The notes: generated by a model from the letters alone, not told the origin. Positions 22,888 to 44,407 are shown, counted from the whole stretch's first letter. The stretch is DNA of 64,000 bases, filler included, from Reclinomonas americana ATCC 50394 (GCA_048213135.1; 18 parts of 18 records of this genome joined end to end with filler, not necessarily neighbours in it); one strand, 5' to 3'. Translations and numbers: made by a program.

Positions 22888-22987
22888 NNNNNNNNNNNNN
22901 NNNNNNNNNNNNNNNNNNNNNNNNNNNNNNNTTAATTAATTAANNNNNNNNNNNNNNNNNNNNNNNNNNNNNNNNNNNNNNNNNNNN

Positions 22988-23949: not shown

Positions 23950-26900
23950 TTAATCGTCATCATTATTGCCGTCGTCTTCGTCGCCTGCTATCCAGTCAAC
24001 ATCGTTGGGATCGTCTCCCCAGTCATCGTCGTCGGCATCCGTGCCCTCGTCGTCATCGTAACCGCCATCATTAGAATCCAAGTCGCTCTCCGAATCCTCC
24101 GCTACTTGGCCTGCCACCTCCGCGACAGGGAAGATAAAGTCCCCGACATCGTCAATTGCATAGGTGAAATCAGGTAGGACGGTGCCGATAATGCGCTCCA
24201 GCAGTCCTTGAGCGTTTCGACGCATCAGATGAATCGACTTTCCAGATACTCGAGCAGTGTAGGATGTTCCACATGACATGCCGCCGAAGGCAAACACTTG
24301 ACCCACATTAGGAGTCACAAGATCTGCCTGCTCGTCAAGAGGAACTTCTATTCCACTTGCCAGCGACCACACCCGCACAGTCTGGTCCCAACTGCCACTC
24401 ACAATGTGCTGGCCATCGGGTGTCACTGCCACTGTACGCACCCAGCTCGTGTGACCTTTCAGTCGACGCACCTTCTCGCCACTCGCCAGTGACCACACCC
24501 GTACAGTTTTATCCCAACTGCCGCTGACAACGTGCAGGCCATCGGGTGTCACTGTCACTGCCCGCACCCGATCCGTGTGGCCTTTCAGTCGACGCACCTT
24601 CTCGCCACTTGCCAACGACCACACCCGCACAGTCCTATCATGACTGCCACTCACAATGTGCTGACCATCAGGTGTCACTGCTACTGCATTCACCTCTCCC
24701 GTGTGGCCTTTCAGTCGACGCACCTCCTCGCCACTTGCCACCGACCACACTCGTACAGTCCAGTCAGTACTGCCACTCACAATGTGCTGGCCATCGGGTG
24801 TCACTGCCACTGCCCACACCCCACTCACCCGCACAGTACTATCATCACTGCCCCCAAAAACCTCTTCCGTGTGGCCTTCCAGTCGGCGCACCTCCTCGCC
24901 ACTTGCCACCGACCACACCCGCACAGTTCCGTCACCACTGCCACTCACAATGTGCTTCCCATCGGGTGTCACTGCCACTGCCCACACCCAACTCGCGTGA
25001 CCTTCCAGTCGTCGCACCTCCTCGCCACTTGACATCGACCACACCCGTACAGTCTTGTCAGCACTGCCACTTACAATGTGCTGGCCATCGGGAGACATCA
25101 CGAGATCCGATGAATGGCCTTCCGCCCACAATTCCTCCCCCGTTTCCACAGACCACATTCTCACCGACCAGTCCATATCTGCACTCAAAACGTACTGACC
25201 ATCGAGAGTGAGCACAACACTTCGCACTGAATCAGTGAGTCCTCCTAACCGCCGCGCGCCCTCCTCATCCACCACCGACCACACCCGCACAGTCTTGTCA
25301 TAACTGCCACTCACAATGTGCTGGCCATCAGGTGTCACCGCCACTGCACACACCTCACTCGTGTGGCCTTCCAGTCGGCGCACCTCCTCGCCACTTGCCG
25401 CCGACCACACCCGTACAGTGTTGTCATTACTGCCACTCACAATATGCTGGCCATCAGGCGTCACTGCCACTACATTCACTGAGCCTGTTCGACCTTTCAG
25501 CCGGCGCACCTCCTCGCCACTTGCCGCCGACCACACCCGTACAGTGTTGTCATTACTGCCACTCACAATGTGCTGGCCATCGGGTGTCACTGCCACTGCT
25601 TGCACCCCATTCGTGTGGCCTTCCAGTCGGCGCACTTCCTCGCCACTTGCCAGCGACCACACCCGTACAGTTTTGTCCCAACTGCCGCTCACAATGTGCT
25701 GCCCATCGGGAGTCACTGCCACTGCTTGCACCCCATTCGTGTGGCCTTCCAGTCGGCGCACTTCCTCGCCACTTGCCAGCGACCACACCCGTACAGTTTT
25801 GTCCCAACTGCCGCTCACAATGTGCTGCCCATCGGGAGTCACTGCCACTGAATGCACCCCATTCGTGTGGCCTTCCAGTTGGCGCACCTCCTCGCCACTT
25901 GCCACCGACCACACTCGTACAGTCTTGTCCCAACTGCCACTCACAATGTGCTGGCCATCGGGTGTCACTGCCAGTGCAAGAACAACACTCGTGTGACCTT
26001 CCAGTCGGCGCACCTCCTCTCCACTCGCCAGAGACCACACTCGTACAGTCTTGTCATCACTGCCACTCACAATGTGCTGCCCATCGGATGTCACTGTCAC
26101 TGCAGTCACCCTACTCGTGTGCCCCACTATCGGCTTCCTCGGCCACCTCACACCCGACACATCCGCCCCTCTGAAATCCGCCTCCCTGGCATTCGCCATG
26201 CACAAATTCACCCCTCGCAAATCCGCTCCCCTCCACACCGTCCTGTGCATCACCGCATCCCTCAAATCCGCACCCCTTACTCGCACTCCAGACAGATCTC
26301 GCCCACTGAACGACACTTGCGCCACACACAACACCGTCGCTGCATTCGCGGCTGCCGTCACCACTCGCTTCTCGTCCACATCGCGCGACATCTCAATCAC
26401 CTCCCACAGCCTCGCTTGCAAACGAGGTGACCGTCGTACCACCTCGGCCATCTGCTCCATCAACGATGGTCGATCATTCAGCAGTCGCACTGCCAACACA
26501 TGCTGCTGCACATCTTGCATCGTCAACCTCCTCTCCTCATCCCACGTCTCCCATGCAAACACATGGCGCGCCACACAGTGCTCCAGCAAGGACAGATGCA
26601 CGAAGCCCCACTGCGTCGTCCCATACCGTCGCACAATCGGACAGCACACTCGCACATACTGGTTCTTTCGACCAAGGAACTTGTCAAACGGTCCCTCTTC
26701 CACTCGTCGCAAGGCGAGTGGCGCACCACCAAAGTCATCCTCACTCGATTGACTCTCCATCACAGACACACGCACCACATTCTTCTCATGCATCAACCGT
26801 GCCAGTCCCTCACAGAACGAGAAACACGTCTCCTCACTCGGCACACGCTCCGCACCCAGACGCGTCTGCCTCTCCTGCTCCCTCACAATCCAATGTCGAA

Positions 26901-28941
26901 TGAATCGGTCAAACACATCACACCGAGTCGGTCGCTGCACAGCACTCGCCACCAACTCCGGCAACACACGAGCCACCACTGCCAGCAGGAATGGATTCGA
27001 CACCAGTGCATCCAGTCCATGCACACTCTTCAATGCATGGATGTAATCATCGGCAGAAGACCACCCTTCATCATCACCAGCACCCACCTGCACCAGTCGC
27101 GCAATGTACTCCTCAATCTGCTCCTTATTGAACGGTGCAATGTGTCGCTCCATCAGCTGCTGCATGCACAGTTGGCCACGTACATCCACCGGTGCAAAGT
27201 ACCGTCGATACTGCGTCACACCACCCAGAGCCGTCAGTGCGTAATCCCCACGACAGGTGATAATCACCTTCAAATCGCGACACACATCCAGCTGGTTCTT
27301 GACAAAAAGATTCACACCACGGTACAACTCGTCGTATCCGTCGAGCAACAACAGCAGTGGCTCCTCCTTCAGTCGTCGCACATCTGACTCACTGAATCCC
27401 AACTCGGGCGACAATCGCTCCAATGCTTCCTCCAACAATCGCTCATCGGCATTGCGCAATGCACCAAGCGGCACACGCACAGGCACTCGTCTGCTCTCTC
27501 TCGTCTGCCACCGTCGCCATGCTCGCTCAGCCAGCACTGACATGGTGGTGGTCTTACCAGCTCCACTGTTGCCAAACAGCACCAGCACACGCTGCGTGGT
27601 GTTGGTGTCGGAGAGGAAGGCATCCACCTCCGTCAATAAATCCGTCATCTTGTCGGTCGAGGAGACGTCACGCTCACGTGAGCACAGCAGTGGCACATAC
27701 ATCTGCATGTCCTTGCGCACACTCTCGTCGTGCTGGTAGAACGAGAGCTCACGTTGAGCGAGTTGATGCAGTCGCTCCTCAAATGTGCTGACAATGAAGT
27801 CGAGGTGGCGCGCCTCACAGATACGAGTAGAGAATTGTGCTCGCTCATCAGTCGTCAACTGCAGTCGAGAGAGAATGGAAAGGAAGACACCACCGTCACC
27901 AAGATACTGTTGTACCGTGGCATCCGTCAGCGGCAACTCATCGTGTCTCAGCTTGTTCCTGACACTCTGCAGCTCCTCCACCGATTTCCGCTCATCAGCA
28001 TCGTCAATCAGCAGCAGCTTGCGACCGTCATCCAGAACGAAACCACCATACAGCATGATAGAGGTGAGTGATGTCGTATCGAAACCGTCGCACGAAGGTT
28101 CGGAAGAGGCATCAGCGTCAAATGCGGCACGCCAGGCCAACGCCACCGGGTGCTTCTCCTCAAACAACTTGACTCGAGAAGGGTGGAGTGGAGCGTGCCG
28201 CTCACGCCATGCCTTCACAGCCGCCGCATCCATGCCAGCAGGTGTGAAACTCGGCACCCATGCCCGCACATCAAAGTCGGGATGATCGCGACTGAACTGC
28301 ACCAGTTTGCGTTGACAGCGCAGACGCACAGCTTCCTCCACCACCTCAAAGGCCATGTTAATGCGCTGCGAGTTGATCATGCTGCGCGTGCATACAAACA
28401 CAGTCAGCACAAGCCCACGCTGAGTGAGGAGAAACAAAGAAGAGGAGAGACGAGGATGACAATGGCAAGCAGAACAAACCGGGTCCCTCGCTCCGAGTTG
28501 CTGTGCGAAGAAATGAGAGTGAGTTGCATGCTTTGCACAGAGAGATGACCAATACGCATCCTAGACACACCTTTCACTCCCACTCCCTCCACTCAACTGC
28601 AGCGTCACGCCAAGCGTCAGACGGACAACAAGGTGCGTGGATGAGTTGATGCCGAGAGTCTTCAACTTCATCACATTCGCATCCTCCAAGTCGTAAGGGA
28701 CAGGCTTCTCTACCCCCACAATCTCCACCCCCTCATCTCCACTCTTCTCACGCAGCAAGCGGGTGGCCTCGCGCAGCAAGACTGCGAGAGTGGACATGGC
28801 CGACATGCCCTCCACCACCACCGACAACGACGAATCATGCGCCGCACTCACGTGCACAGAGAACTGTGTACAAACAAAGAGAAGTGAGCACACACATAGA
28901 GAAGGAGGGAAGAAAGAGAACAAACAAACACACACCGACAT
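23950..28941 (-). CDS. NLR-like STAND protein, copy 1: Ubl-like, HEPN-like, NACHT, pentapeptide repeats, 14 WD40, acidic tail
   Basis: Exon 1 ATGTCG at 28941; exon 2 about 28863-28571 (FSVHVSAAHDSSLSVVVEG..LKTLGINSSTHLVVRL); exon 3 28381-23950. Motifs: FDTTSL, RNKLRH (27943-27960), Walker A GNSGAGKTT, Walker B LLLLLDGYDEL, KVIITCR, NPFLL, FVHLSLLEH, AAANAATVL..FSGRDLSGVRVRGADL, then 42-aa WD repeats. Confidence 0.9.
24340..26130 (-). repeat. Highly conserved 126-bp WD40-coding tandem repeats
   Basis: Unit GHT..V.AVAVTPDGQHIVSGS.D.TVRVWS.ASGEEVRRLE; about 25605-25730 and 25731-25850 appear identical at the nucleotide level. Confidence 0.92.
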
Positions 28942-29274
28942 TGAGTGTTCTGTTCTCCGGCGCGATTCACAACAATTCCTGTCAATGGAGTTGTCACAAT
29001 GCCGGCTGTTTCAACCGAAGGGGGAGGGCGCAGGCTGCAGGTGTTGCTGACAATGCCAAACGGACGAATGCAAGCACAATCACAGGGTATTTTATACACT
29101 CCACTTCCTATTCAAACACCTCGGCGCAGCTTGCGCTCGTCTTCCTCATCATTCTCACTCTAACAGCATTTGACAGCCGATCAGCGTTGCTGTGATTTGC
29201 CCAGCATCGGCATGACAGTCATTTGAGCGCTGCACCAACAAGCCACTGTCAGAAAACTTGTCTCCAATAGCACA

Positions 29275-32214
29275 TCACTCTCTCCCTCCACGCAACGGCG
29301 ACTCTGGTGGCGATGAAGGCCCAAACCGCTGCTGCTTTCGCTGCCGTTCCAACTCACGATCCTTCTCCACCAAGTCGAGAATCGCGGCACGTCGATCGGC
29401 CGCCGACAGCGATTCAAAGTCCACCGAGCGCGCGGTGGCCGGGCCCCTGATTGTAGAAGTGAGACACTCTCCCTTCCTCCCTTCCCCCTTCCCCCACACT
29501 CAACTGCCGAGAACTCGGCGACCCACTCCCCGGCGGCGTTCCCTCCCGCTCCATCTTTTGCTTGAATCGCCTGCCATCGCACCAATCACATAAGTCACCA
29601 CTAGCATCACAAATCACTCCGCCAATCAACAAACCTCGTGCGCGCCGAGAACGGAGTGATGCGCGTCGTCGGGTGCGGTGAGCCGCCACTGCTGCTACCT
29701 CCACCACCAGGAGCTGCCAGAGAAGATCAGCGACAGAAGCAAAGCCAACACAAGTCGGTGAACACGCACAAGAGAGAACGCGGACTTCAGTCAGACTGCT
29801 CCGTCCAGTATCCAACGACCGCGTCGTCTGCCCAGCAGCCGCCGCCGTCGCCGCAGCGCGCGCCGTTTGTGCTGCGCCTCCATTTTGTTAGCAACCAGAA
29901 ACGCGCTATTCCAAGTGAAAGTGGGACGCAACGAGAAGTCGGGGTGTTCCCAGGCCGCGCACCTCGCCACTTATCCACCTGCCCGTGCGCCATCGACACG
30001 CGGACAAACATTTCATCACGCGGCTTCTCCGATGGCGGTGGCAATGGCACAGCCTGGTTCGAGTGCATGATGCGCAATTGCTGCAGAATCAGAAGGGTAA
30101 GTGACGGCAAAGGCAAAGAATTTGCAGAAGAGCACGAAACTGCCTGTGCTGCAGCAGCAGCCACTGAACCAGGAGTAGCCGTGGCCTGCGAGGTTGCAAT
30201 CGCCTGCGCCAAACCGCCAGTCGGTGGTGGCGAGTCCTTGCCGTCCGACTCCTGCGCGAGCACAAAGAGTGAGTGACAATGCCCCACACCCAAACTTGAA
30301 GAGGAGACGCACCACATCCGAGTAGTCGGCATCGTTTGAGTGCTGTCACGGAAAGAGCTGGTGAGTATGCAACCAAATAGAGAACAGAAGACTGGCGCAC
30401 TTACCCGGAAGCCCACAGACGTGCGTGGTCGTGCATGATCTTGCGGCACGTCAAAGTTCTGCGGCGGGGTGTTAGCATGTTTTGTTCATGATAACCGTGG
30501 TCAACACTGACGCAACTCGGAAGGTGTAGTAAGGACCCGTCTGCGAGCGCATCGGATTGCGACTGTGGAGAGCAAGCAAGTTAGCAACACATTTCGACAG
30601 AAGGTCGAAGTCTGTCGTACGCACGCAGTGGAGTTGGCAGAGGTTGCACGCGGCATCTTGGGTTTCGATGCCTCGCTTGGTGAATTGCCCTTGAGCGGTA
30701 GCCGGGGGATCACTACACGAGAGGGGGACAAGCAAAGTGAGGAAATAACAGAAGTAGGCAACTCACTTACTCACTACTCACATAATACACGCACATATCA
30801 ACGCACTCTATCTCTCACTCCTTCCCTTTCCCCACAAATGCACTCACCAGTCTCAGACAATTGGCTCGTGGTATGCGCATGGTAGTCGACATAAGGCGAC
30901 GGCGGGGGCGACCTGTCCTCTGGGTACAGACGATACGGTGCCACCTGCGAAATGGGAAGGATGTGAGAAAGACGAAAGGGACTGCAGAACAGAGAATACA
31001 AGTGAAAGAAGTACAATCAAGCGTCCATCGGCACTGCCACGAGAGAGTAGGAGAGCACCAAGAAGATGCAAACCGCTTCCTATCTTTCCTTCCTCTCCAC
31101 CTCACACACAATAGACCTTCCTATTCCCAACCCACATTCCTGCCAGTCTAAGCGAACACTATCTGGCACTTGCCCTCTCTCCGCACAAGAAGTCGTGGCT
31201 TTCACCCTCCCTCGCTGCGAACTGCTTTGCCCAAACTGTGGCTTCCGTCACTTCCCGACTTCCAAAACAAAATTCTCTTAGTTGCCTCTACCCCCTATCC
31301 TCATCGCTGGCCTCGCTAACTACTTCCGTCATTGCTCACACTCCATATCACTTCGCGCCACACCACACAATCGCGCTCTCCCACTCACACTCTCCTTCAA
31401 TTTCTCCTTTCGTCTCCTCTGAAAGACACCTTCATTCCACAGCCTTGCACTCCCTCTCGACCATCCCTAACATCATCCATTCTTCCCCTTCTCCCCTTTC
31501 CCTTTTCCCCCGCACATGCATCTTCTTCCCTCATTCTCCCTTTACCCCTCCCCCTTCTCCTCTTCTCCCTTTCCCCTTTTTCCCCCTTCTCCCTTTTCTC
31601 CCCCTTCTCCCCTTCTCCCCCTTCTCCCTCTTCACCCCCTCCTCCCCTTTCCTTCCCCCTTCTCCCCCTGCTCCCCCCACAAACCTCATCCTCATCCTCC
31701 GAATCAAACTCCTCCTCCGCTCTCTCCTGCCCCGGCAACACCAACAACCGCACCGTCGCCAACACCAACTCCATATTCTTCTTCCGCTCCAACCACAAAT
31801 CCGACTTGCGCCGCCGCGTGCGATCCAGCAAATCGCGATAGCGCAGCTGCAGTCGCTCGAACACGCCGAGTTTCCTGCACAGAAGGAGGTAAGTAGGAGG
31901 AGGAGCAAAAGGAGTGGGATCAAGTGACGCAACTTGTACGGATCGCCAGAGGTACCGAGGTCGAGCAGCTGCTTCTTGCGTCGCAGGAGATCAAAGTTGG
32001 CGCCGGCAATCTCCCGGCGCAGCTTGTCGTCGGTTTTGATGGCCTCCTGCAGAGGGGGCAATGCGATGAGACAAGGGGGAGGGGAGAAGGAAGGGAGATG
32101 GAGGGAAGGGGGGGNNNNNNNNNNNNNNNNNNNNNNNNNNNNNNNNNNNNNNNNNNNNTTAATTAATTAANNNNNNNNNNNNNNNNNNNNNNNNNNNNNN
32201 NNNNNNNNNNNNNN

Positions 32215-32252
<38 letters not shown>

Positions 32253-35200
32253 GACTTGAGGGAGTGAGGGAAAAGGACAGGCAGCGAGAGCACAGAAAGC
32301 TATAAGCAGATTCGAGACCAGTACTGCCAGTCAACTACAGAGACCGAGGAGGGAGAGAAAGAGAAGAAGAAGAAAGGGTGGCAGACAGGAGCGCATAAGA
32401 GAGAAGACTTGAGAGTGGTTGAGTGAAGAGACTGAAGGCGAAAATAATGCATAGAAGCGTGAGAGGCCAGTCAACTACGGAGACAGAGAGGTGAGGATCA
32501 GAGAGAGAGAGAGAGAGAAGAGGAGAGAGAGAGAGTGCGTGTGCGTGTCTGTGAGTATGTAAGTGTATGGGCGTGGACCTCACCTGCAACACGGGAGCAC
32601 CCTGACGCAGACGATCCAATTCCTGCTGCATGGCGGCCATCTGATCGCGCAGTTCTTGGTTCTCCTTGCGCAGTTGCGCGAGTTGCGCACGCAGTTCCTC
32701 GATCAACACATCGCTGCGAGAGAAATAAGCAACAGGAGGAATCACATCAGCAGCGAGAAACACACACCGCTGCGCAATAATGCGATCCTTCTCGCGCAGC
32801 TGGTCCTGCATGTCGCTGGCATTCGCCGCATTCTCCACACGCACAACATGCGACCGCAAATCCTCGGCCATCATCTGCGACTTGTCCACCGACCTGCCAC
32901 AAGACAAAAAGGGTGAGCGCAACGAAAGCCCAGACATTCACAATCCGCCCACGCACTTTTGCAGCGCCGATGTCGACGACGAGGCCTGCTCGGCCTTGTA
33001 CTGCGCCTCCGCCAGCGCCTGCTTCAGCCGGTTGCTCTCGTCGGCAAAGTCGGAGCGCATCTTGAGAATGTTTTCGCGCAGACGCTCCACTTCTTGTTTC
33101 GAGCGCTGCAAAAAAAAGAGTGAGACGAGGAGAATTCAAGAGAGAAGGCGAGCGGACAAACCTCCAGCTCCATGTGCGTGTCGTCGAGTTCACGTTCCAG
33201 CGTCGTAATCTTGAGTTCGAACACGGTGCGGACTTCCAAAATGGCCTGTGCAGGGAAGGGAAAGTGAGTAAGATGCAAGCATGAGGAGAGCGGAAGGGGA
33301 GGGGTATGGAAAGCGAAGGAGGGTAAGGGGTGGGGGGACGAAATGCAGCGAGGGCGAGAGACAGCGGGGGCGAGAGAAAGAGAGAGAGCGCAGAGATAGA
33401 GAAACAGAAGGAGAAATACACGTCCTTGCTCAACAATCCTTCCCTTTCCCTTCTCCTTCCCCCGCTCCCCCCCCTCACGCACCCTCTCCTTCTCCGCCGT
33501 CAGCCGCGTCTCGATCTCCGCCAAGTTCTTCTTCAGCGCCGCAATCTCCGCCGCATGCGTCTCCTTGGTCTCCGTCATCTCCTGCTCGTGCTTCGCCGTG
33601 TTCTTCTGAATGGTGATCACCAGGTCGGCATTGGTGCGCTCCAGCTCGTCGTTGGCGTCGCGCAGCTTGCGCAGTTCGTCGGCGTGGCGGGCCTTCAGTT
33701 GCTCGATTTCCTTTTCGAGTTTTTCCTGCACGCGATCGCAACACGTTTAGCAGGGTGGGGATGACGAGAGAAGATCAGTTGCAGAAACTGACCCTGAGCG
33801 CCTTCAGCTCCTTGGCGTGCTTCGCATTCAGCGCCGTGATCTCGCTGTCGGTGGCGCCGCCGGCACCGCCCTGCTGGCCAGTCCAGTTCCAGTGGACCTG
33901 CAGGAGGGGGAAGGGGGAAGGAAAAGGGTGAGTAAGAGAAGGAGATGGTGGGGGAGGAGGAGCAGGAAAAAAAGGGAAGGAGATGGGGGANNNNNNNNNN
34001 NNNNNNNNNNNNNNNNNNNNNNNNNNNNNNNNNNTTAATTAATTAANNNNNNNNNNNNNNNNNNNNNNNNNNNNNNNNNNNNNNNNNNNNACGCTCGCGC
34101 ACAATCAGCTGCTCTCGGAGGTACATGAGCTCCGCGTAGTAGGCCTGCACAGATCCAACGCGTGAGTGCAATGAGCAGAGATAAAGGGCGAGAGATGAGC
34201 TGTACCTTGCGCTGCTGTTCCAGCGTCTCCTTGCGGCGCGTCAGCTGGCCACGTAGCAAGTCCATTTGCAAGTCGTTACCGCGCAGCTTGCGGGTGGTTT
34301 CCTGTGGAGCGAGGGTGAGTGGAAGGGGAAAAGAAGCGTGCTCCACAGCCTTGGTGCGAGAAGAGTGAGGAACTTTCTTCATCCCGCCAGATAGTTCTTC
34401 CTATTTACCCTACTCCGACACTCAAAACAAGTAGATACCAGAAGCAGTGCGAATCTTCAACTTCCCGTTACCTTCTGCCTCCTTCGCTCTTCCTCCGCCT
34501 CCTCGTCGTCCTCATACTATATCTCTTTCTCTCACTATTTCCTATTTCTCTCTTTCTTTCTTATTCTCTTTCTGTTCCCTCTTCTCTCTTCCCTCCTCCC
34601 TATTCTCGCTTCCCTCTTCTCCCTTCTCTTCTCTCATCTCTCTTCCTCCTCCCCTTTCTTCCCCTTCTCTTCCCCCTTTTGCGCAACTGACAACTTCCTC
34701 GAATACGCCTCACTCTGCTTCGCATACTCCTCCGCCAGCGACCGCGTCCTGTCAATCTCCGTGTTGGCCTCCTGCCGCGACGTCTGCAGCACGCCGGAAA
34801 AGTGCATCGACACCTCGTACACCAGCAGAGTCAAGCACTTGCGCATCATCTCGTCGAAGCGCTTGTGCGCCCGTTGCGACAGATCCAGCTTCTCCTTGGG
34901 CGTCAGCTGTGACGAGTAGACGAACTCGGCGTCCTCTGCATAAAAGGAGAAGGGGTAAGTAAGGCAAAGAGGACATGGGAGGTGGAGAGATGTGTGTGCA
35001 CAAGGAGAAGGGGACGGGAGAGAAGGCAAGCAAGGCTGGCGTACGGTGTGCAAAGAGAGCGAACTAGAGCGACGGTAGATGTGCGAGCACGAAGAAGAGA
35101 AGGGAGACAGGGCGGGAGAGGGCGGCGTGCTGTGCGTGCGCGAGGAGGGGAAGTGAGACTTTCATCCTCCCTCTCTATCTCTTTCTGGCATGCATTCCTG

Positions 35201-36731: not shown

Positions 36732-36804
<73 letters not shown>

Positions 36805-36995
36805 TNNNNNNNNNNNNNNNNNNNNNNNNNNNNNNNNNNNNNNNNNNNNTTAATTAATTAANNNNNNNNNNNNNNNNNNNNNNNNNNNNNNNNNNNNNNN
36901 NNNNNTTCCTCGCGTTCCTCCTCATCGCTATCTCTTGACATGCGCTCACGTGATGACTTGCTCGCTGCTGCCGAGGCAGGTCGCGAGGAGAGCAT
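29275..36995 (-). CDS. Large multi-exon coiled-coil protein with low-complexity termini
   Basis: Chain of exons from MLSSRPASAAASKSS.. through FRRPSGAS.., coiled-coil exons (EKLEKEIEQLKARHADELRKLRDANDELE; EELRAQLAQLRKENQELRDQMAAMQQELDRL; FERLQLRYRDLLDRTRRRK) to a last exon ..SPPESPLRGGRE* at 29275. Crosses three gaps, so it could be more than one gene. Confidence 0.55.
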
Positions 36996-39230
36996 GAGAG
37001 TGTGTGTTAGAGTAAGTGTCTCTGTCCGTGTGTGTGTCGTCAAAGGAGAGAGTGCGTGCGCGTGAATGGCGATGATTTTGCGTGTGTTGGGCGGGTGGTC
37101 GTTTGTTCGATCGATTGATGGTGAGAGGCGCGCAACTTTTTCCTTGCGTGTGGTTTGTTTGTTTCGTTTGGTGCGGTGGATAGAGGAGAGTGAGAGGGAG
37201 AGTGTAGGTGGGGAGGAAGGTGTGTGGCGAAGGAGAGGAAGAGAAAAAACACGCTGTTTTTCCGGGCTCCAGTTTTGGACCGATATCGGTATATTTTCGC
37301 GCGCTGCTTTACCAGGCGGTCTGTCTATTCCTTCTCCTTCTCCCGCCTTTCTCTCTCTCTGTCTGTCTTTGTGCACTCACCGACGCATCATCATCGTCTT
37401 CCTCGCGTTCCTCCTCATCACTATATATCTCGTGACATTCGCTCGCGTGATGACTTGCTCGCTGCTGCCGAGGCAGGTCGCGAGGAGAGCATGAGAGAGT
37501 GTGTTAGAGTGAGTGTCTGTCTCTGTCCGTGTGTGTGTCGTCGAAGGAGAGAGTGCGTGCGCGTGAATGGCGATGATTTTGTGTGTTGGGCGGGTGGTCG
37601 TTTGTTCGATCGATTGATGGTGAGAGGCGCGCAACTTTTTCCTTGTGCGTGGCCTGCTTGTTTTATTGAGTGAGGTGGCGAGTAAGGAGTGAAAGGAACA
37701 GTGTTAGTGGGGAGGAGAGTGTGTGGTGGAAGAGAGGAAGAGAAAACACGCTGTTTTTCCTGGCTCCAGTTTTGGACCGATATCGGTATATTTTCGCGCG
37801 CTGCTTTACCAGGCGGTCTCTCTCTTCCTTCTCCTTTATCCCGACTTTCTCTCTCTCTGTCTTTGTGCACTCACCGACGCATCATCATCGTCATCCTCGC
37901 GTTCCTCCTCATCGCTGTCTCTTGACATGCGTTCGCGTGATGACTTGCTCGCTGCTGCTGAGGCAGGTCGCGAGGAGAGCATGAGAGTGTGAGTTAGAGT
38001 GAGTGTCTCTGTCTGTGTGTGCGTTGTCAAAGGAGAGTGTGTGTGTGTGTGATGGAAGTANNNNNNNNNNNNNNNNNNNNNNNNNNNNNNNNNNNNNNNN
38101 NNNNTTAATTAATTAANNNNNNNNNNNNNNNNNNNNNNNNNNNNNNNNNNNNNNNNNNNNTAGCTCATTGATCGACTCCGGCCAGGACGGCTTTACCGTG
38201 GATCGGCACTGGCGGAGCGAGAATCGGCGCACGAGGGCTTGATATCGGTGCGGTTGCGAGTGTGCTCCAGCGGTGAGCACTCCGGCGGGAGCCAGGATCG
38301 TGACCAGCGGGCCGCACACACGCTCGAGGGAGGGTTTTGCTGGTCACATTGCTTGACCGGCCCCTCTCGAGGCCCGATCTAAGCGAAGGCATGTAAAATA
38401 AAGTCAAACTATAAGTCGGTTGTGGTTGGGGTGCATCGCTGTCGGTGTTGAGTCGAGTAGAGAGTGCCACGTTAGTGACGGTGCTGTCCAGTGGTGGACT
38501 GGTGGTGGCAGTGGAGGACACTACAATTGGTTGTCGAGACTGATAAGTGTGGAGCAAGCTCAAATACGGAACTCTCTCCAAACGTAGTCAGGAGAGTGCG
38601 TGTGAATGGCGATGATTTTTGTGTGTGGGCGGGTGGTCGTTTGTTCGATCGATTGATGGTGAGAGGCGCGCAATTTTTTCCTTGTGTGTGGCTTGCTTGT
38701 TTTGTATGCTGCCGTGGAAAGAGGAGATTGAAGGGGAGAGTGTGGGTGGGGAGGAGAGCGTGTGGTGGAAGAGAGGGAGAGAGAAGCACGCTATTTTTCC
38801 TCACTCACCGACGCATCATCATCGTCTTCCTCGCGTTCCTCCTCATCGCTGTCTCTTGACATGCGCTCGCGTGATGACTTGCTCGCTGCTGCTGAGGCAG
38901 GGCGCGAGGAGAGCATGAGAGTGTGAGTGACTAAGTGAGTGTTTCTGTCTCTGTGCTGCTGTGCTTGGTGAGTGAGTGTGTGTGTGTGTGCGTGTGAATG
39001 GCGATGATCATGATTTTGTGTGTGGGCGGGTGGTCGTTTGTTCGATCGATTGATGGTGAGAGGCGCGCAACTTTTTCCTTGCGTGTGGCTTGCTTGTTTT
39101 CTTTGATAAGTTGGCGAGTAAGGAGTGAAAGGAACAGTGTTAGTGGGGACGAGAGTGTGTGGTGGAAGAGAGGAAGAGAAAGCACGCTGTTTTCCGGGCT
39201 CCAGTTTTGGACCGATATCGGTATATTGTT
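36906..39230 (-). repeat. Tandem amplification (about 490-bp unit, 4 or more copies) of the promoter and first exon of the coiled-coil gene
   Basis: ATG of MLSSRPASAAAS.. at 36995, 37492, 37982 and 38916; shared blocks GGTCGTTTGTTCGATCGATTGATGGTGAGAGGCGCGCAA and CTCCAGTTTTGGACCGATATCGGTATATT. Confidence 0.85.
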
Positions 39231-39639
39231 CGTTGTTTTCGAACAACAATTCATTCACCAACAAAAAAGCAACAGCTAGCTGTCTTGATGACCAAGTCTC
39301 CATTTCCATTTGCAACTGTATTCCACTGCTGTACATCTCGCTGCAGTCTTTTGTGGATTTTCTGTTCAACCACGCTTCTTACGGGCATATGCATGTCGCG
39401 GCCGCGGTGCGCATGCATGCGCAGCGCTATAGCTAGCTGCAGTTCGTATTGAAAATTTCTTGCTTCTGCAGGTGCACGTTTGCATATCTGCTTCTTGACC
39501 CCAATACGGTGATCATCATGCTCTTCTCGGCTTGGTTAAACTTGCAGGATCGCTGTCACACAGGAAACCCACCAGCATTGTGACAACTCCATTGACAGGA
39601 ATTTGTGAAACGCGACTCCGAACAGAACACACGCGCGCA

Positions 39640-42600
39640 ATGTCGGTGTGTGTTTGTTTATTCTCTCTTCCCTCATTCTGTGTGTGCTCACCTTGTTTGT
39701 GCGACAGTTCTCTGTGAATGTGAGTGCGGCGCATGATTCGTCGCTGACGGTGGTGGTGGACGGCATGTCGGCCATGTCCACTCTCGCGGACTTGCTGCGC
39801 GAGGCCACACGCTTGCTGCGCGAGAAGAGTGGAGATGGGGCAGTGGAGATTGTGGGAGTGGAGAAGCCGAGTGCATTTGACATTGAGGACGTGGGAGAGC
39901 TGAAGTTGAAATCGCTCGGCATGAACTCATCCACTCATCTCGTCGTCCATGTGAGCGTTCGCGTGGCACCGCAGTCGAGTGGTGAAAGTGGCAGTGTGAG
40001 TGTAAGGTGCGTGTGGGATGTGTGTGAATCATCTCTCTGCATAACATGCATCTCTCATGCCAACGTACAGCAACTCGGGGCGAATGACTCGGTTAGTTTT
40101 GCTTGACTTTGTCATCCTTCTCTCCCCTCCTTGCTCTTCATTCAATGCGAGTCTGTGCTGACTGTGTCTGCGTGTGCACGCGCAGCATGATCAACTTCAA
40201 CCGCATCAACATGGCCTTTGAGGTGGTGGAGGAGGCCGTGCGTCTGCGCTGTCAATGCGCACTGGCGCAGTTCAGTCGTGATCATCCCGACTTTGATGTG
40301 CGGGCGTGGGTGCCGAGTTCCACACCTGCTGGCATGGATGTGGCGGCAGTGAAGGCATGGCATGAGCGCCATGCTCCACTCCATCCCGGGCGAGTCAGGC
40401 TGTTCGAGGAGAAGCAGTCTGTGGCGTTGGCCTGGCGTGCTGCATTCGACGCCGACCCCTCTACCGACCCTCCGTGTGATGGTTTCGACACGACGGCACT
40501 TACCTCCATCATGCTATATGGTGGCTTTGTTGAGGATGGCGATCGCAAGCTGTTGCTACTTGACAATGGCGATGAACGGAAGGCTGTAGAAGAGCTGAAC
40601 GACGTGAGAAAGGCGTCGGCGCACAAGGACCTGATGATGACCGATGCCACTGTGCAGCAGTACCTTGGTGACGGTGGTGTTTTCCTCTCCATCCTCTCTC
40701 GACTGCAATTGACGGCCGACGAGCATGCTCAATTCTCCGCTCGTGTCTACGAGGCGCGTCACGCTCGACTAATCGTGGATACATTCGAGGAGCGACTGCA
40801 TCGACTGGCTGTACGCGAGCTCTCGTTCTACCAGCACGACGAAAGTGTGCACAAGGACTTGCAGATGTATGTGCCACTGCTGTGTTCACGTGAGTGTGAC
40901 GTCTCGTCAAGTGACAAGATGACGGATCTGTTGACGGAGGTGGCTGTTTTCCTCTCCGACACCGACACCACCCAGAATGTGTTGGTGTTGTTTGGCAACA
41001 GTGGAGCCGGCAAGACCACTACCATGTCCGTGCTGGCTGAGCGAGCTTGGCAACAATGGCAAACGGGAGAGAGCAGACGAATGCCTGTGCGTGTGCCTCT
41101 TGGCGCACTGCGCAATGCCGATGAGCGGTTGTTGGAGGAGGCATTGGGGCGACTGTCACACGAGTTGGGATTCAGTGACACGGATGTGCGACGATTGAAG
41201 GAGGAACCACTGCTGTTGTTGCTTGACGGATACGATGAATTGTACCGTGGTGTAAATCTTTTTGTCAATAACCAGCTGGATGTGTGTCGAGATGTGAAGG
41301 TGATTATCACCTGTCGAGGCGATTACGCACTGACGGCGCTGGGTGGCGCGACGCAGTATCGACGGTTGTTTGCTCCTGTGGATGCACGTGGACAGTTGTG
41401 CATGCAAAAGCTGATGCAGCGACACATTGCGCCGTTCAACAAGGAGCAGATTGAGGAGTATTTCATGCGACTGGTGCGAATGGGTGGTGATGATGGTGAG
41501 GCGCGGTGGATTACTGCCGAGGAGTACAGTCGTGCACTGACGAGTGTACATGGACTGGATGCACTGGTGTCGAATCCGTTCCTGCTGGCAGTGGTGACTC
41601 GCGTGTTGCCGCAGTTGGTGGCAAGTGGCGTGCAGCGACCAACTCGCTTCGACGTGTATGACCGTTTCATTCGACAGTGGATTGAAAGGGAGCAGGAGAG
41701 GCAGACGCGTCTTGGTGCGGAGCGCGTACCGAGTGAGGAGACGTGTCTCTCGTTCTGTGAGGGACTGGCACGGTTGATGCATGAGAGGAATGTGGTGCGT
41801 GTGTCTGTGACAGAGAGTCGGTCAGGTGATGGTGGTGGAGAGGAGGATGACTTTGGTGGTGCACCACTCACCTCGCGACGAGCGGAAGAGGGACCGTTTG
41901 ACAAGTTTCTCGGTCACAAAAACCAGCATGTGCGAGTGTGCTGTCCGATTGTGCGACGGTATGGGACGACGCAGTGGGGTTTCGTGCATCTGTCGTTGCT
42001 GGAGCACTGTGTGGCACGGCATGTGTTTGCGTGGGAGACGTGGGATGAGGAGAGGAGGTTGACGATGGAAGATGTGCAGCAGCATGTGCTGGGAGTGCGA
42101 TTGCTGAATGATCGACCATCGTTGGTGGAGCAGATGGCCGAGGTGGTGCGACGATCTCCTCGATTGCAGGCGAGACTGTGGGAGGTGATTGAGTTGTCGC
42201 GAGAGGTGGACGAAGAGCGATTGGTGACGGCGGCAGCGAATGCAGCAACGATGTTGTGTGTGGCACAAGTGTCGTTCAGCGGAAGGGATCTGTCGGGTGT
42301 GCGAGTGAGGGGTGCGGATTTGAGGGATGCGGTGATGCACATGACGGTGTGGAGGGGAGCAGATTTGCGAGGGGTGAATGTGTGCATGGCGTATGCGAGG
42401 GAGGCGGATTTCACGGGGGCGGATGTGACGGATGTGAAATGGCCGAGGAAGCCGATGGTGGGACATACTGGAGGAGTGCGTTCTGTTGCTGTTTCTCCGG
42501 ATAGTCAGCACATTGTGAGTGGCAGTGATGACAAGACGGTACGGGTGTGGTCGGTGGCAAGTGGCGAGGAGGTGCGCCGACTTGAGGGCCATGCGAGAGG

Positions 42601-44407
42601 GGTATGGGCAGTGGCAGTGACACCTGATGGCCAGCACATTGTGAGCGGCAGTGGGGACAAAACTGTGCGAGTGTGGTCGCTGGCAAGTGGCGAGGAGGTG
42701 CGCCGACTGGAAGGCCACACGAGCGAAGTGCGTGCAGTGGCCGCTGCACCCGATGGTCAGCACATTGTGAGTGGGGGCAATGACAAGACGGTACGATTGT
42801 GGTCGCTCACCAGCGAAGCAGAAGTGCAAAGGATGGAGGGGCACACCAGATCGGTGTGGTCTGTCGCTGTGGCTTTCGATGGAAGGTTCATTGTGAGTGG
42901 GAGTGTCGACTACACAGTTCGAGTGTGGTCGGTGGCGAGTGGAGAAGAAGTGTGCCGATATGTGGGACACACTGGCTGGGTAACATCTGTTGCAGTGACG
43001 CCCGATAGCCAGCACATTGTTAGTGGAAGCCGTGATGCAACTGTGCGAGTGTGGTCTTTTGCGAGAAGAGAAGAGGTGCGACGGTTCGAAGGACACGCTG
43101 ACTCTGTGGATTCTGTCGCTGTAACTGCAGATGGTGAACACGTTGTGAGCAGCGGTGGCTGGCCTGATCAGACTGTGCGTATGTGGCTACTGGTCAGTGG
43201 AGATGAAGTGCGACGGTTTGATGGACACGCACGTGAAGCATGGTCTGTCGCTGTCACCCCCAACGGCCAGCATATTATAAGTGGTAGCTTAGACAAGACA
43301 GTGCGACTTTGGTCGTTTGTGGGCGATCAAGAAGTGCGGCGGCAAGAGGGCCACGCTGGCTCAGCGAATTCTGTTGTGCTCACTCTCGATGGCCAGTACA
43401 TTGTGAGTGCAGGCGATGACGAGACGGTGAGAATGTGGTCGCTGGCAACTGGTGAGGAACTTTGGAAGGTGGCTGGTCAGTCGTCGGAGCTCGTAATGTC
43501 TCACAGTGGTCAGCACATAGTGAGTGGACGTGTGGACGGGGCTGTGCGAGTATGGTCCGTAGCTAGTGGGGAAGAGGTACGGCGATTTGAAGGTCACACA
43601 GACTCGGTTCGGACTGTCGCCATCACCCCCGATGGGCAGTGCGTACTGAGCGGGAGTGATGACGGGACAGTCCGCGTGTGGTCACTGGCGAGTGGAAAAG
43701 AAATGCGACGATTGGAGGGACTCGCTGAAGCAGTGACTTCTCTCATTGTCACTCCGGATGGTCAGTTTGTTGTGAGTGGCAGTGCAAACACCACGGTGCG
43801 AGTGTGGTCGCTGGCGAGTGGAGAGCAAGTACATCGGTTGAGGGGCCATCGTGGATCTGTGTTTTCCGTTGCTGTAACTCCCGATGGCGAGTATGCTGTG
43901 AGTGGGAGCTATGACAAGACAGTGCGAGTTTGGTCGCTATCATGCGGTGACGAAGTAAGACGACTGGAGGGTCATTCTCTCGCGGTGGTGTCTGTTGACA
44001 TCACTGTCGATGGTCAATACGTCGTGAGCGGGAGCCGGGACAACTCAGTACGAGTGTGGTCACTGACGAGCGGGCTGGAAGTGCGACGGTTGGTAGGTCA
44101 CACTGCCTGGATGCGATATGTCGCCTTTACTCATGATGGTCATCATATTGTGAATGGCAACGAAGACGGCACAGTGCGCGTGTGGTCACTGGCAAGTGGA
44201 GAAGAGGTACCGCTTGACGAACAGGCAGATCTCGTGTTTCCTGTGGCTTGTCGTGGCGCTTTCCTGCAATACTTGGCATTTGGTACTGTCTACACCGCAC
44301 GGGTGTGTGGCAAATCGATTCATCTGATTCGTCGAAACACTCACGGACTGGTAGTGCGCATTCTCGGTACCGTGTTGCCCGATTTTACTGACGCGCTGGG
44401 TGTTTAG
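39640..44407 (+). CDS. NLR-like STAND protein, copy 2: Ubl-like, HEPN-like, NACHT, pentapeptide repeats, 14 WD40
   Basis: Same three-exon layout as copy 1 (ATGTCG at 39640, exon 2 about 39708-40006, exon 3 about 40187-44407). Motifs RKASAH (40607-40624), GNSGAGKTT, LLDGYDEL, pentapeptide region and 14 WD repeats. Confidence 0.9.

What the first reader, a model, noticed from the sequence alone, without database searches (positions are those of the whole stretch)
23950..44407. Pair of NLR-like receptors carrying a putative HEPN RNase effector and a ubiquitin-like header: candidate protist immune or cell-suicide system
Seen in the sequence: two inverted paralogues (23950-28941 minus, 39640-44407 plus) share the order N-terminal ~90-aa domain, ~200-aa helical domain, NACHT (GNSGAGKTT, LLDGYDEL), pentapeptide repeats, 14 WD40. 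The helical domain has FDTT(S/A)L followed by EELQSVRNKLRH in copy 1 and EELNDVRKASAH in copy 2. The Arg and His of RxxxxH are kept while all four residues between them differ. Established knowledge: RxxxxH is the HEPN RNase active site, which is activated by dimerisation; an upstream FD(I/T)xLL-type motif occurs in DZIP3-like HEPN domains; STAND proteins oligomerise once their repeats sense a ligand (fungal HET-E, prokaryotic Avs, animal NLRs). Inference: ligand binding by the WD propellers would oligomerise the HEPN domains and trigger RNA cleavage, as an antiviral, antiparasite or allorecognition response. I do not recognise this full architecture as a described system.
Basis: partly seen in the sequence, partly recalled or inferred. 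Interest (0 to 1): 0.88.

Follow-up and report, generated by a model that had tools for sequence, protein, structure and literature searches.

The report
Paired NLR-like genes, possible HEPN head
Two neighbouring copies of a large receptor-like gene from an unidentified eukaryote combine an NTP-driven switch and a 14-blade WD40 sensor with an orphan front end that weakly but repeatedly resembles a HEPN RNA-cutting domain, a design already known from animal and bacterial immune receptors.

Summary
Two head-to-head paralogues (23950-28941 minus, 39640-44407 plus) are 75% identical in protein. Both carry NACHT, pentapeptide repeats and 14 WD40 units, and the quoted motifs are present.

The NACHT-pentapeptide-WD40 part has clear relatives at 26-33% identity, which carry other N-terminal heads.

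The head has no detectable homologue among 1.84 billion representative proteins. RxxxxH alone is not evidence: it appears in 53-55% of shuffles. Three weak lines still point to HEPN:
- Pfam's only or best match is Swt1-like HEPN across the motif (E 0.02-0.09, below cut-off).
- The best named ESM Atlas cluster is the same family (score 0.82, a lead only).
- For a low-confidence AlphaFold model (pLDDT 54), 13 of the 14 best matches among 48,161 PDB chains are HEPN or HEPN-related folds (Z 3.1-4.6).

A first, poorer model gave no such matches. I put a HEPN fold at about 0.6 and an active RNase at about 0.45. The ubiquitin-like exon is only a lead.

HEPN-NACHT receptors are already described in oysters, cnidarians, amphioxus and bacteria, so this is a new variant of a known kind. 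The organism was not identified.

The parts
28936..28941 (-). Copy 1, proposed mini-exon 0 (ATG TCG)
   Evidence: Inferred from comparing the paralogues. The ATGTCG|GTGTGT donor is identical in both copies. No RNA evidence.
28864..28935 (-). Copy 1, proposed intron 1 (72 nt, GTGTGT..ACACAG, pyrimidine-rich)
   Evidence: Its length differs by 10 nt from copy 2, so it cannot be coding in both copies.
28571..28863 (-). Copy 1, exon 1: candidate ubiquitin-like domain
   Evidence: The best named ESM Atlas cluster is the ubiquitin family (PF00240 on 82% of members) at score 0.89, and 8 of the 10 best named hits share that family or clan. Pfam gave 0 families. PDB sequence search gave only unrelated rows with E>=0.42.
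28382..28570 (-). Copy 1, proposed intron 2 (189 nt, GTGTGT..GCGCAG)
   Evidence: It contains the in-frame stop of copy 1. In copy 2 the flanking ORFs are in different frames. Splicing restores one frame in both copies.
23950..28381 (-). Copy 1, exon 2: head, NACHT, pentapeptide, 14 WD40, acidic tail, stop
   Evidence: Open frame with Pfam domains.
27751..28194 (-). Copy 1, HEPN-like helical region (aa 63-210 of exon 2)
   Evidence: Sub-threshold PF18731 match. ESM Atlas HEPN_Swt1 cluster at 0.82. VIA-align matches to HEPN folds span model residues 24-171, which is aa 63-210. omega is 0.18 over aa 96-205.
27943..27960 (-). Copy 1, RNKLRH (R141..H146), candidate catalytic motif
   Evidence: Read from the sequence. 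In model m4f01343f5f21, R lies at the end of helix aa 130-142 and H in the loop after it, but pLDDT there is below 50.
27061..27594 (-). Copy 1, NACHT NTPase (aa 263-440; Walker A GNSGAGKT at 27550-27573)
   Evidence: PF05729 at 35.6 bits against a cut-off of 26.7. Motifs read.
26146..26310 (-). Copy 1, pentapeptide repeats (aa 691-745)
   Evidence: PF00805 E 9.3e-10.
24334..26127 (-). Copy 1, 14 WD40 units of 42 aa, strongly homogenised
   Evidence: Pfam finds 14 stretches. TRF finds a 126-nt period with 13.8 copies. Mean pairwise unit identity is 0.77. Variation is concentrated at unit positions 5, 6, 8, 24, 26 and 33.
39640..39645 (+). Copy 2, proposed mini-exon 0 (ATG TCG)
39646..39707 (+). 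Copy 2, proposed intron 1 (62 nt)
39708..40006 (+). Copy 2, exon 1: candidate ubiquitin-like domain
   Evidence: 72% identical to copy 1 over 78 aa. Pfam gave only an unrelated match at E 0.11.
40007..40185 (+). Copy 2, proposed intron 2 (179 nt, GTGCGT..GCGCAG)
40186..44407 (+). Copy 2, exon 2: head, NACHT, pentapeptide, 14 WD40, stop
40373..40816 (+). Copy 2, HEPN-like helical region (aa 63-210), with RKASAH at 40607-40624
   Evidence: PF18731 E 0.019-0.084, 13.6-15.7 bits. Aligned with copy 1 in A3.
40973..41506 (+). Copy 2, NACHT NTPase
   Evidence: PF05729 at 34.7 bits.
42275..42439 (+). Copy 2, pentapeptide repeats
   Evidence: PF00805 E 1.1e-6.
42458..44218 (+). Copy 2, 14 WD40 units, diverged from each other
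   Evidence: Pfam finds 13 stretches and my parse finds 14 units. Mean unit identity is 0.51. TRF detects only 2.4 copies.

Best explanation
These are two functional paralogous genes for NLR-like STAND receptors of a eukaryote. Each protein has, in order:
1. a small, possibly ubiquitin-like N-terminal exon
2. a lineage-specific all-helical head
3. a NACHT NTPase with its helical extension
4. a short pentapeptide beta-helix
5. 14 WD40 repeats, enough for two seven-bladed propellers

The head is most likely a very diverged HEPN domain of the Swt1-like kind. R141 and H146 would be its RNase site.

**Proposed mechanism, all of it inferred**
- The WD40 propellers bind a ligand through their variable top-face positions.
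- The NACHT module exchanges nucleotide and oligomerises.
- The heads are brought together into HEPN dimers.
- The dimers cut cellular or invader RNA, stopping translation or killing the cell.

**What is shown:** paralogy, domain order, intact frames, purifying selection, and kinship of the NACHT-pentapeptide-WD40 chassis.

**What is inferred:** the HEPN fold (about 0.6), catalysis (about 0.45), the role of the ubiquitin-like exon, the ligand, and an immune or allorecognition role.
For: **Chassis**
- Pfam finds NACHT, Pentapeptide and WD40 above cut-off.
- 65 proteins match aa 240-745 at E<=0.001. The full-length rows have 26-33% identity and 95-100% coverage.
- All five relatives I scanned with Pfam carry NACHT. 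Four of the five also carry pentapeptide repeats after it, and three of those then carry WD40. Their heads differ: kinase in P0046 and P0049, ARM-like in P0025 and P0063, none in P0042.
- Similarity to these relatives begins only at about aa 207, so aa 1-205 plus exon 1 sits in the variable head position.

**Both copies functional**
- omega is 0.17-0.30 in all nine segments tested, and 0.18 over the 110 codons of aa 96-205.
- The three-exon models have no internal stops.

**HEPN**
- PF18731 HEPN_Swt1 is the only Pfam match for copy 1 and the best for copy 2, in four of four query cuts. It always maps profile positions 74-104 of 115 onto aa 129-160, across R141-H146 (E 0.019-0.089).
- The best named ESM Atlas cluster for aa 90-250 is 99% PF18731 (score 0.82). 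Nine of the ten best named hits share its family or clan.
- AlphaFold model m4f01343f5f21 (aa 40-210) has pLDDT 54 and pTM 0.50. Aligned against all 48,161 PDB representatives, ranks 1-9 and 11-14 are HEPN or HEPN-related chains: RnlA 7aex and 6y2r, LsoA 5hy3, HEPN toxins 8xdj, 7ae2 and 5yep, HI0074 1jog, 1wwp, YutE 1ylm, ST0689 1wol, sacsin 3o10, ANT C-terminal domain 6nlt, and 3jrt. Z is 4.6-3.1 and each match covers nearly the whole target domain.
- The 469 chains Foldseek preferred reach only Z 2.6, and the best of those is again the ANT C-terminal domain.
- In the model, R141 ends a helix and H146 begins the next loop. PMC3710099 places Rx4-6H in that position (passage).
- Copy 1 has N after the R, the commonest residue at that place (same passage).

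**Sensor**
- Copy 1's WD40 units are 77% identical on average. Their variation is confined to six positions.
- The abstract of PMC1805685 describes this behaviour for the fungal het-d/het-e family.
Against: - No HEPN line reaches its tool's own threshold. Pfam gives 13.5-15.7 bits against a cut-off of 27.5. The Atlas score of 0.82 is reached by a third of shuffled proteins. Z<=4.6 is far below the tool's caution line for helical folds, and no chain reaches Z 5.
- The three lines are not independent. All read the same two 77-80% identical sequences, and probably the same local motif.
- The motif stretch of the model (residues 71-109) has pLDDT below 50.
- Foldseek found nothing at E<=0.001 for either model.
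- The head had no sequence match in PDB chains or PHROGs. PADLOC and NCBIfam gave nothing for copy 1 and one unrelated row each for copy 2.
- RxxxxH is expected by chance. A second one, RHAPLH, exists.
- Copy 2 has K, not N/D/H, after the R.
- No Ex3[KR] motif was seen in the helix that would be helix 2.
- I could not superpose R/H on known catalytic residues, run profile-profile comparisons with HEPN alignments, or test dimerisation.
- There is no expression data, and the organism is unknown.
Confidence: 0.5

Rival explanations
1. The head is a lineage-specific helical domain that is not HEPN. It could be an adaptor, a membrane-targeting four-helix bundle or another signalling module. The RxxxxH motif and the weak HEPN signals are coincidence. 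The protein is still an NLR-like receptor, but its output is not RNA cleavage.
For: - All HEPN signals are below threshold.
- The motif occurs in 53-55% of shuffles.
- One of the two models gave no HEPN match, and Foldseek gave none.
- No homologue was found in 1.84 billion representatives.
- Heads on this chassis are highly variable.
Against: - Two sequence-based tools named the same rare family out of about 25,000. A structure search with a predicted model pointed to the same superfamily.
- No Pfam match at E<=10 to HeLo, SesA, Goodbye, death-fold or other known NLR heads.
- 13 of the top 14 structural matches are HEPN-type, although helical bundles of many other kinds are in the library.
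Confidence: 0.28
2. The head has a HEPN fold but is catalytically dead or regulatory. It would bind RNA or another protein, as proposed for the HEPN domains of Swt1 itself. The receptor would signal by recruitment, not by cleavage.
For: - PMC3710099 lists Swt1-like HEPN as 'partly conserved', with Swt1's own dyad inactive (Table 1 passage).
- Copy 2 has the atypical RK instead of RN/RD/RH.
- No Ex3[KR] acidic motif was found in the expected helix (my reading).
Against: - R and H are kept in both copies in the most diverged non-repeat stretch: 55% identity over aa 125-155, omega 0.23.
- Copy 1 has the canonical RN.
- NLR heads in the comparable animal and bacterial proteins are read as active RNases (passages).
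Confidence: 0.14
3. The genes are not conflict or immune receptors at all. They would be housekeeping STAND/WD40 scaffolds, and the duplication and repeat homogenisation have no link to recognition of non-self.
For: - No ligand, expression or phenotype data exist.
- WD40 and NACHT also occur in non-immune proteins. Pfam's WD40 rows include TEP1 and WDR families.
Against: - The head is orphan and lineage-specific.
- Relatives carry variable heads.
- Repeats are homogenised, with variation at a few positions.
- The locus is paralogous, with further WD40-only copies nearby.
- These are the features of diversifying NLR families (abstract of PMC1805685).
Confidence: 0.08

Closest known systems
Animal HEPN-NACHT NLRs: DZIP3/hRUL138-like HEPN on NACHT proteins of the pearl oyster, and CXorf38-type (Swt1-like clade) HEPN fused to NACHT and DEATH in amphioxus and cnidarians
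   Same: An N-terminal HEPN head, a central NACHT and C-terminal repeats. The oyster paper names LRR, TPR or WD40 as the repeats. The Rx4H motif is read as an RNase site, and the genes belong to expanded, variable families (PMC9646362 passages; PMC3710099 passages).
   Different: - Here the head fails the Pfam cut-off for every HEPN family, and no DZIP3 match was listed.
- It has no sequence homologue anywhere.
- A candidate ubiquitin-like exon precedes it.
- A pentapeptide beta-helix lies between the NACHT module and the WD40 repeats.
- The host is an unidentified eukaryote.
Bacterial HEPN-STAND and bNACHT proteins with HEPN effectors
   Same: An N-terminal HEPN joined to a STAND/NACHT NTPase and repeats. 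They are proposed abortive-infection RNases (PMC3710099; bioRxiv 10.1101/2022.07.19.500537 supplementary discussion).
   Different: - The present gene is eukaryotic, with introns.
- The bacterial examples named in the 2013 table carry TPR and S1 domains, not pentapeptide-WD40.
- None was retrieved as a homologue of the head.
NACHT-pentapeptide-WD40 proteins of Mortierellomycota fungi, their Glomeribacter/Mycoavidus endosymbionts and unnamed metagenomic or protist records
   Same: The whole chassis from about aa 207 to the WD40 repeats is homologous (E down to 1e-54, 26-33% identity, 95-100% coverage). Four of the five relatives scanned show NACHT followed by pentapeptide repeats, and three of them then carry WD40.
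   Different: Their heads are kinase, ARM-like or absent. From the precomputed lists, they also include TIR, PARP, metallophosphoesterase or peptidase (positions not checked). None shares the head found here.
Fungal HET-E/HET-D/NWD family (Podospora)
   Same: NACHT plus WD40 repeats that are homogenised within and between paralogues, with variation confined to a few surface positions. They act in cell-death and allorecognition (abstract of PMC1805685; compare).
   Different: No HET domain, and no Pfam match to any fungal NLR head. 'HEPN' does not occur in the main text of the fungal NLR effector survey PMC9815663 (supplements not seen).
RNase L and Ire1 (KEN-type HEPN RNases)
   Same: This is the working analogy. 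A HEPN RNase is switched on when a ligand-sensing module brings two copies together. PMC3710099 classifies KEN as HEPN and reports that its R, H and the polar residue after R are needed. Activation by dimerisation is recalled, not read here.
   Different: The switch in those proteins is a kinase or ankyrin module, not NACHT. No Pfam match to the KEN family was listed.

Membership tests
NACHT STAND NTPase (PF05729) | Profile match above the curated cut-off | tested here: met
   35.6 and 34.7 bits against 26.7.
NACHT STAND NTPase (PF05729) | Walker A GxxGxGK[ST] and Walker B hhhhDGxDE | tested here: met
   GNSGAGKTT at aa 270 and LLLLLDGYDEL at about aa 340-350 in both copies.
NACHT-pentapeptide-WD40 chassis (relatives P0002-P0049) | Homology across the NACHT module, helical extension and pentapeptide region, followed by WD40 | tested here: met
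   E down to 1.2e-54, with 95-100% coverage of aa 240-745 for most full-length rows. Order checked in 5 relatives: all five carry NACHT, four then pentapeptide repeats, three then WD40.
WD40 double propeller | 14 WD40 repeats | tested here: met
   Pfam finds 14 and 13 stretches. 14 units of 42 aa were parsed in each copy. That they form two seven-bladed propellers is inferred.
Swt1-like HEPN (PF18731) | Profile match above the curated cut-off (27.5 bits) | tested here: not met
   13.5-15.7 bits, E 0.019-0.089. It is the only or best match, but it covers only profile positions 74-104 of 115. I therefore do not file the head as a member of PF18731.
HEPN superfamily | Four-helix up-and-down bundle with an insert between helices 2 and 3 | tested here: inconclusive
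   For the model with pLDDT 54, 13 of the top 14 of 48,161 chains are HEPN-type, but Z<=4.6. The model with pLDDT 40 gave no HEPN rows. Foldseek gave nothing.
HEPN superfamily | [quoted passage not shown] | tested here: met
   R141 and H146 are in both copies. In the model, R is at the end of helix aa 130-142 and H in the loop, with pLDDT below 50. The motif alone is expected by chance in 53-55% of shuffles.
HEPN superfamily | Polar residue (N, D or H) straight after the R | tested here: inconclusive
   Copy 1 has RN. Copy 2 has RK.
HEPN superfamily | Second acidic residue, typically Ex3[KR], in helix 2 | tested here: inconclusive
   None in the predicted helix aa 102-111. An EEAVR stands far upstream at aa 15-19, outside the aligned fold (my reading).
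HEPN superfamily | Metal-independent RNase activity and dimerisation | not testable with these tools
   This needs bench work. The homodimer prediction could not be run because the queue was full.
DZIP3/hRUL138-like HEPN (PF18738) | Profile match | tested here: not met
Not listed at E<=10 for any of six query cuts. HMMER filters drop most matches above about 0.1.
Ubiquitin-like beta-grasp | Profile match or beta-grasp fold | tested here: inconclusive
   Pfam gave none for copy 1 and one unrelated match at E 0.11 for copy 2. PDB sequences gave only unrelated rows with E>=0.42. The best ESM Atlas cluster is the ubiquitin family at 0.89, a lead only.
Fungal HET-E/NWD NLRs | N-terminal HET or another known fungal head | tested here: not met
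   No such Pfam match.
Fungal HET-E/NWD NLRs | Homogenised WD40 repeats with a few hypervariable positions | tested here: met
   Copy 1 has mean unit identity 0.77 and entropy peaks at positions 5, 6, 8, 24, 26 and 33 of 42. Copy 2 is not homogenised (0.51). Positive selection was not tested.

The most novel reading that the evidence does not exclude
A eukaryote outside the animals has independently built an RNase L-like suicide switch. An orphan ubiquitin-like plus HEPN head sits on a NACHT-pentapeptide-WD40 receptor. The head-to-head pair may be functionally split. Copy 1 would be the fast-evolving sensor, with homogenised repeats and a canonical RN..H. Copy 2 would be a stable partner, with diverged repeats and RK..H. 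Their heads, the most diverged non-repeat part of the two proteins, would form an asymmetric HEPN heterodimer.
Probability: 0.12. Interest if true: 0.7.

Novelty: new variant of a known kind. Interest (0 to 1): 0.45.

Why it matters
If the head is a working HEPN RNase, this extends the HEPN-on-NLR design to another eukaryotic lineage. That design is so far described by sequence analysis in animals and bacteria. Here it sits on a different chassis (pentapeptide plus WD40), and the head is so diverged that standard annotation misses it.

It would be a compact test case for three questions:
- Does NACHT oligomerisation switch on a HEPN RNase?
- What does a ubiquitin-like cap do on such a receptor?
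- How does repeat homogenisation in one paralogue, but not the other, shape recognition?

If the head is not HEPN, the locus is still a clean example of an NLR-like gene pair with an orphan effector domain of unknown action.

Tried and rejected
**Homologues of the head**
- None among proteins of 811-2583 aa.
- One spurious fn3-repeat protein at E 3.9e-4 among 1.84 billion representatives.
- None among proteins of 145-464 aa at E<=10.

**Other libraries, on the head**
- PDB sequences: 0 matches.
- PADLOC: nothing for copy 1, and one unrelated ZorC row for copy 2.
- NCBIfam: one unrelated row for copy 2.
- PHROGs: 0.

**Fold searches that gave nothing useful**
- Foldseek against PDB with both models: no match at E<=0.001.

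**Profile-profile test against real HEPN_Swt1 sequences: not possible**
- No genome is held for the window.
- Two scans of genome contigs confirmed no locus.
- A locus of E. coli K-12 gave only a record handle without relatives. PF18731 matched nothing there or in the 14 control genomes.

**Other attempts**
- Sequencing runs: none was listed, and no RNA holder was listed.
No result exists.
- Rfam and tRNA scans of the window: 0 hits. They gave no help in naming the organism.
- Earlier notes of this scan: nothing for this genome or for look-alike sequences.

**Rejected readings**
- A kinetoplastid-style intronless gene with only a trans-splice site upstream. I rejected it because a multi-exon neighbour gene exists, and the same two GT..AG introns restore one frame in both copies.
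- Positive selection on the four residues between R and H. I rejected it because dS is also very high there (1.5) and omega is 0.23.

Full report
**The locus.**
The window is eukaryotic. It has a multi-exon coiled-coil gene, a RagA/Gtr1 exon, abundant GA/CT/GT microsatellites and 17 assembly gaps. No genome is held for it and no sequencing run was listed. No rRNA, tRNA or Rfam family is in the window. The organism stays unidentified, so 'protist' is unverified.

**The observation.**
- Two very long ORFs lie head to head: 23950-28380 on the minus strand and 40187-44407 on the plus strand.
- Their products of 1476 and 1406 aa are 75% identical (1065/1418).
- Pfam finds NACHT above its cut-off (35.6 and 34.7 bits against 26.7) and pentapeptide repeats (E 9e-10 and 1e-6). 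It finds 14 and 13 WD40 stretches. I parsed 14 units of 42 aa in each copy.

**The gene model.**
- Upstream of each long ORF lies a conserved ORF of about 98 aa.
- In copy 1 it is in the same frame as the long ORF but separated by a stop. In copy 2 it is in another frame.
- Aligning the two upstream regions shows a shared donor (AAG|GTGTGT, AAG|GTGCGT) and acceptor (GCGCAG|C) that restore one frame in both copies.
- A second small intron follows a mini-exon ATGTCG (donor GTGTGT, acceptors ACACAG and CGACAG). Its 72 and 62 nt differ by 10 nt, so it cannot be coding in both copies.
- The three-exon models give 1576 and 1508 aa without internal stops.
- This rests on paralogue comparison only. 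No RNA data could be obtained.

**The chassis has relatives.**
- Residues 240-745 (pre-NACHT helices, NACHT, helical extension, pentapeptide) find 65 proteins at E<=0.001. The full-length rows are 26-33% identical over 95-100% of the query.
- Named sources are Mortierellomycota fungi (Linnemannia, Mortierella, Entomortierella), their Glomeribacter and Mycoavidus endosymbionts, a Nitrospirae bin, and unnamed JGI, ENA and EukProt records.
- All five relatives that I scanned with Pfam carry NACHT. Four then carry pentapeptide repeats, and three of those then carry WD40. Their heads are a kinase (P0046, P0049), ARM-like repeats (P0025, P0063) or nothing (P0042).
- The precomputed lists add TIR, PARP, metallophosphoesterase and peptidase families, whose positions I did not check.
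- Similarity between our protein and 45 N-terminal pieces of these relatives starts only at about aa 207.
- Exon 1 plus aa 1-205 of exon 2 therefore occupies the variable head position, where NLR-like proteins carry their effector or adaptor.

**Both copies look functional.**
- Nei-Gojobori estimates give omega 0.17-0.30 in all nine segments.
- Divergence is mosaic. dS is 0.28-0.40 in aa 1-95 and from the pre-NACHT helices to the pentapeptide region. It is 0.99 in aa 96-205 and 1.23 in the WD40 array.
- Nucleotide identity dips from 0.87-0.94 to 0.71-0.78 exactly over the HEPN-like stretch.
- Either gene conversion has homogenised the middle, or the head and the sensor are older or faster-evolving.
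- The four changed residues between R141 and H146 are part of this locally high divergence (55% identity over aa 125-155, dS 1.5, omega 0.23). They are not a sign of positive selection.

**Is the head HEPN? Evidence against.**
- RxxxxH by itself means nothing here. At least one occurs in 53% and 55% of 20,000 shuffles of the two heads, and two or more in 15-16%. A second conserved one (RHAPLH, aa 61-66) exists.
- The head has no detectable homologue. There was nothing among similar-length proteins. The search of 1.84 billion representatives gave one spurious fn3 protein. PDB sequences and PHROGs gave nothing. PADLOC and NCBIfam gave one unrelated row each, for copy 2 only.

**Is the head HEPN? 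Evidence for.** Three weak results agree.
1. *Pfam.* HEPN_Swt1 (PF18731) is the only match for copy 1 and the best for copy 2 in every cut I tried. It always maps profile positions 74-104 of 115 onto aa 129-160, across the motif. E is 0.019-0.089 and the score 13.5-15.7 bits, against a cut-off of 27.5.
2. *ESM Atlas.* Its best named cluster for aa 90-250 is 99% PF18731, at score 0.82. The tool says a third of shuffled proteins reach that score, so it is a lead only.
3. *Structure.* AlphaFold on aa 40-210 of both copies gave a model with pLDDT 54 and pTM 0.50. It was aligned to all 48,161 PDB representatives without any Foldseek pre-filter, and 125 chains reach Z>=2. Ranks 1-9 and 11-14 are HEPN or HEPN-related.

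**How the structural matches were assigned.**
- Five carry HEPN in the entry title: 7aex, 8xdj, 7ae2, 1wol and 3o10. 6y2r is the same RnlA protein as 7aex.
- LsoA 5hy3 belongs to the RNase LS family, which PMC3710099 classes as HEPN.
- 1wwp, 1ylm and 3jrt are named as HEPN structures in that paper.
- 1jog, 5yep and the C-terminal domain of ANT 6nlt I assign from recall.
- Z is only 4.6-3.1, and no chain reaches 5. The tool warns that such values can reflect a common helical arrangement.
- The information is in the ranking, not the scores. The 469 chains Foldseek preferred reach at most Z 2.6 under the same aligner. The best of them is again the ANT C-terminal domain, and Csm6' appears at 2.1.

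**Caveats on the model.**
- In the model, R141 ends helix aa 130-142 and H146 opens the following loop. PMC3710099 places Rx4-6H there.
- That stretch has pLDDT below 50, and I could not superpose it on catalytic residues.
- Foldseek gave nothing for either model.
- Copy 1 has the usual N after the R. Copy 2 has K.
- The three lines share the same input and are not independent.

I put a HEPN fold at about 0.6 and an active RNase at about 0.45. I do not file the head as a member of PF18731, whose cut-off it fails.

**The ubiquitin-like exon.**
- The ESM Atlas ranks a ubiquitin-family cluster first (0.89), and 8 of the 10 best named hits are of that family or clan.
- Pfam gives nothing relevant. 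PDB sequences give only unrelated rows with E>=0.42.
- By eye, the exon ends in a strand resembling the C-terminal strand of ubiquitin. That comparison is recalled, not tested.
I treat the exon as a lead, at about even odds.

**The sensor.**
- Copy 1's WD40 units are 77% identical to each other on average (maximum 95%). Copy 2's are 51%.
- TRF sees 13.8 copies of a 126-nt period in copy 1 and only 2.4 in copy 2.
- In copy 1 the variation sits at unit positions 5, 6, 8, 24, 26 and 33. Most other positions are nearly invariant.
- Repeat exchange with a few diversifying surface positions is what the abstract of PMC1805685 reports for the Podospora het-d/het-e NACHT-WD40 family.
- I did not test for positive selection.
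- Two WD40-only genes with the same repeat type lie 17 kb downstream.

**Comparison with what is known.**
- N-terminal HEPN on NACHT or other STAND NTPases is in print. PMC3710099 lists CXorf38 (placed under Swt1-like) with NACHT, ankyrin, CARD and DEATH. It lists DZIP3-like HEPN with NACHT, and bacterial HEPN-STAND-TPR-S1 proteins (passages).
- PMC9646362 reports more than 50 pearl-oyster NACHT proteins with an N-terminal DZIP3-like HEPN, and LRR, TPR or WD40 tails (passages).
- The bNACHT preprint lists HEPN among the effectors of bacterial NACHT proteins (passages).
- The fungal NLR effector survey PMC9815663 does not contain the word HEPN in its main text (supplements not seen).
- My searches turned up no paper describing ubiquitin-like plus HEPN plus NACHT plus pentapeptide plus WD40. 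They cover open-access text only.

**Verdict.**
An NLR-like receptor pair is certain. A HEPN head is the best available reading but unproven. A DZIP3 link and the novelty of the architecture as a kind are not supported.
- It is a new variant of a known kind, of moderate interest.

Noticed in passing
61057-61983 (+) and 62431-63555 (+): Two tandem WD40-only genes. They are 69% identical to each other and 64-66% identical to the WD40 array of NLR copy 1, and they share a C-terminal tail. tblastn found no NACHT upstream of them. They could be repeat donors, decoys or truncated paralogues.
   Followed up: partly
17 sites, e.g. 3372-3471, 22888-22987, 36806-36905: Every gap is 44 N, then TTAATTAATTAA, then 44 N. 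Most gaps sit inside GA/CT/GT microsatellites. This is an assembly or scaffolding convention, not biology.
   Followed up: yes
36906-38052, and related sequence at about 38790-39380: A 497-nt tandem repeat (2.3 copies, 88% matches) lies between the two NLR copies. A related ORF-like stretch lies just upstream of copy 2.
   Followed up: no
about 32335-34400 (-): A multi-exon coiled-coil gene lies between the two head-to-head NLR copies. The pair therefore does not share a simple bidirectional promoter.
   Followed up: no
27766-28065 (-) against 26134-27765 (-): Divergence between the paralogues is mosaic. Nucleotide identity is 0.71-0.78 over the HEPN-like stretch and 0.81-0.94 over the NACHT to pentapeptide region. 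dS is 0.99 against 0.28-0.40. This suggests gene-conversion tracts or an exchanged head segment.
   Followed up: partly
24880-24840 (-), aa 1168-1181 of copy 1: A 14-aa insertion (a partial WD40 unit) is present in copy 1 relative to copy 2. It looks like a remnant of unequal exchange within the array.
   Followed up: no
23953-24160 (-): Copy 1 ends in a tail of about 70 aa rich in D, E, G and N. Copy 2 lacks it and stops soon after the shared ..GTVLPDFT.. stretch.
   Followed up: no
16647-17762 (+) and 11882-12928 (-): An exon encoding the C-terminal part of a RagA/Gtr1 GTPase (E 9e-18) and an exon with a fibronectin type III domain.
   Followed up: no
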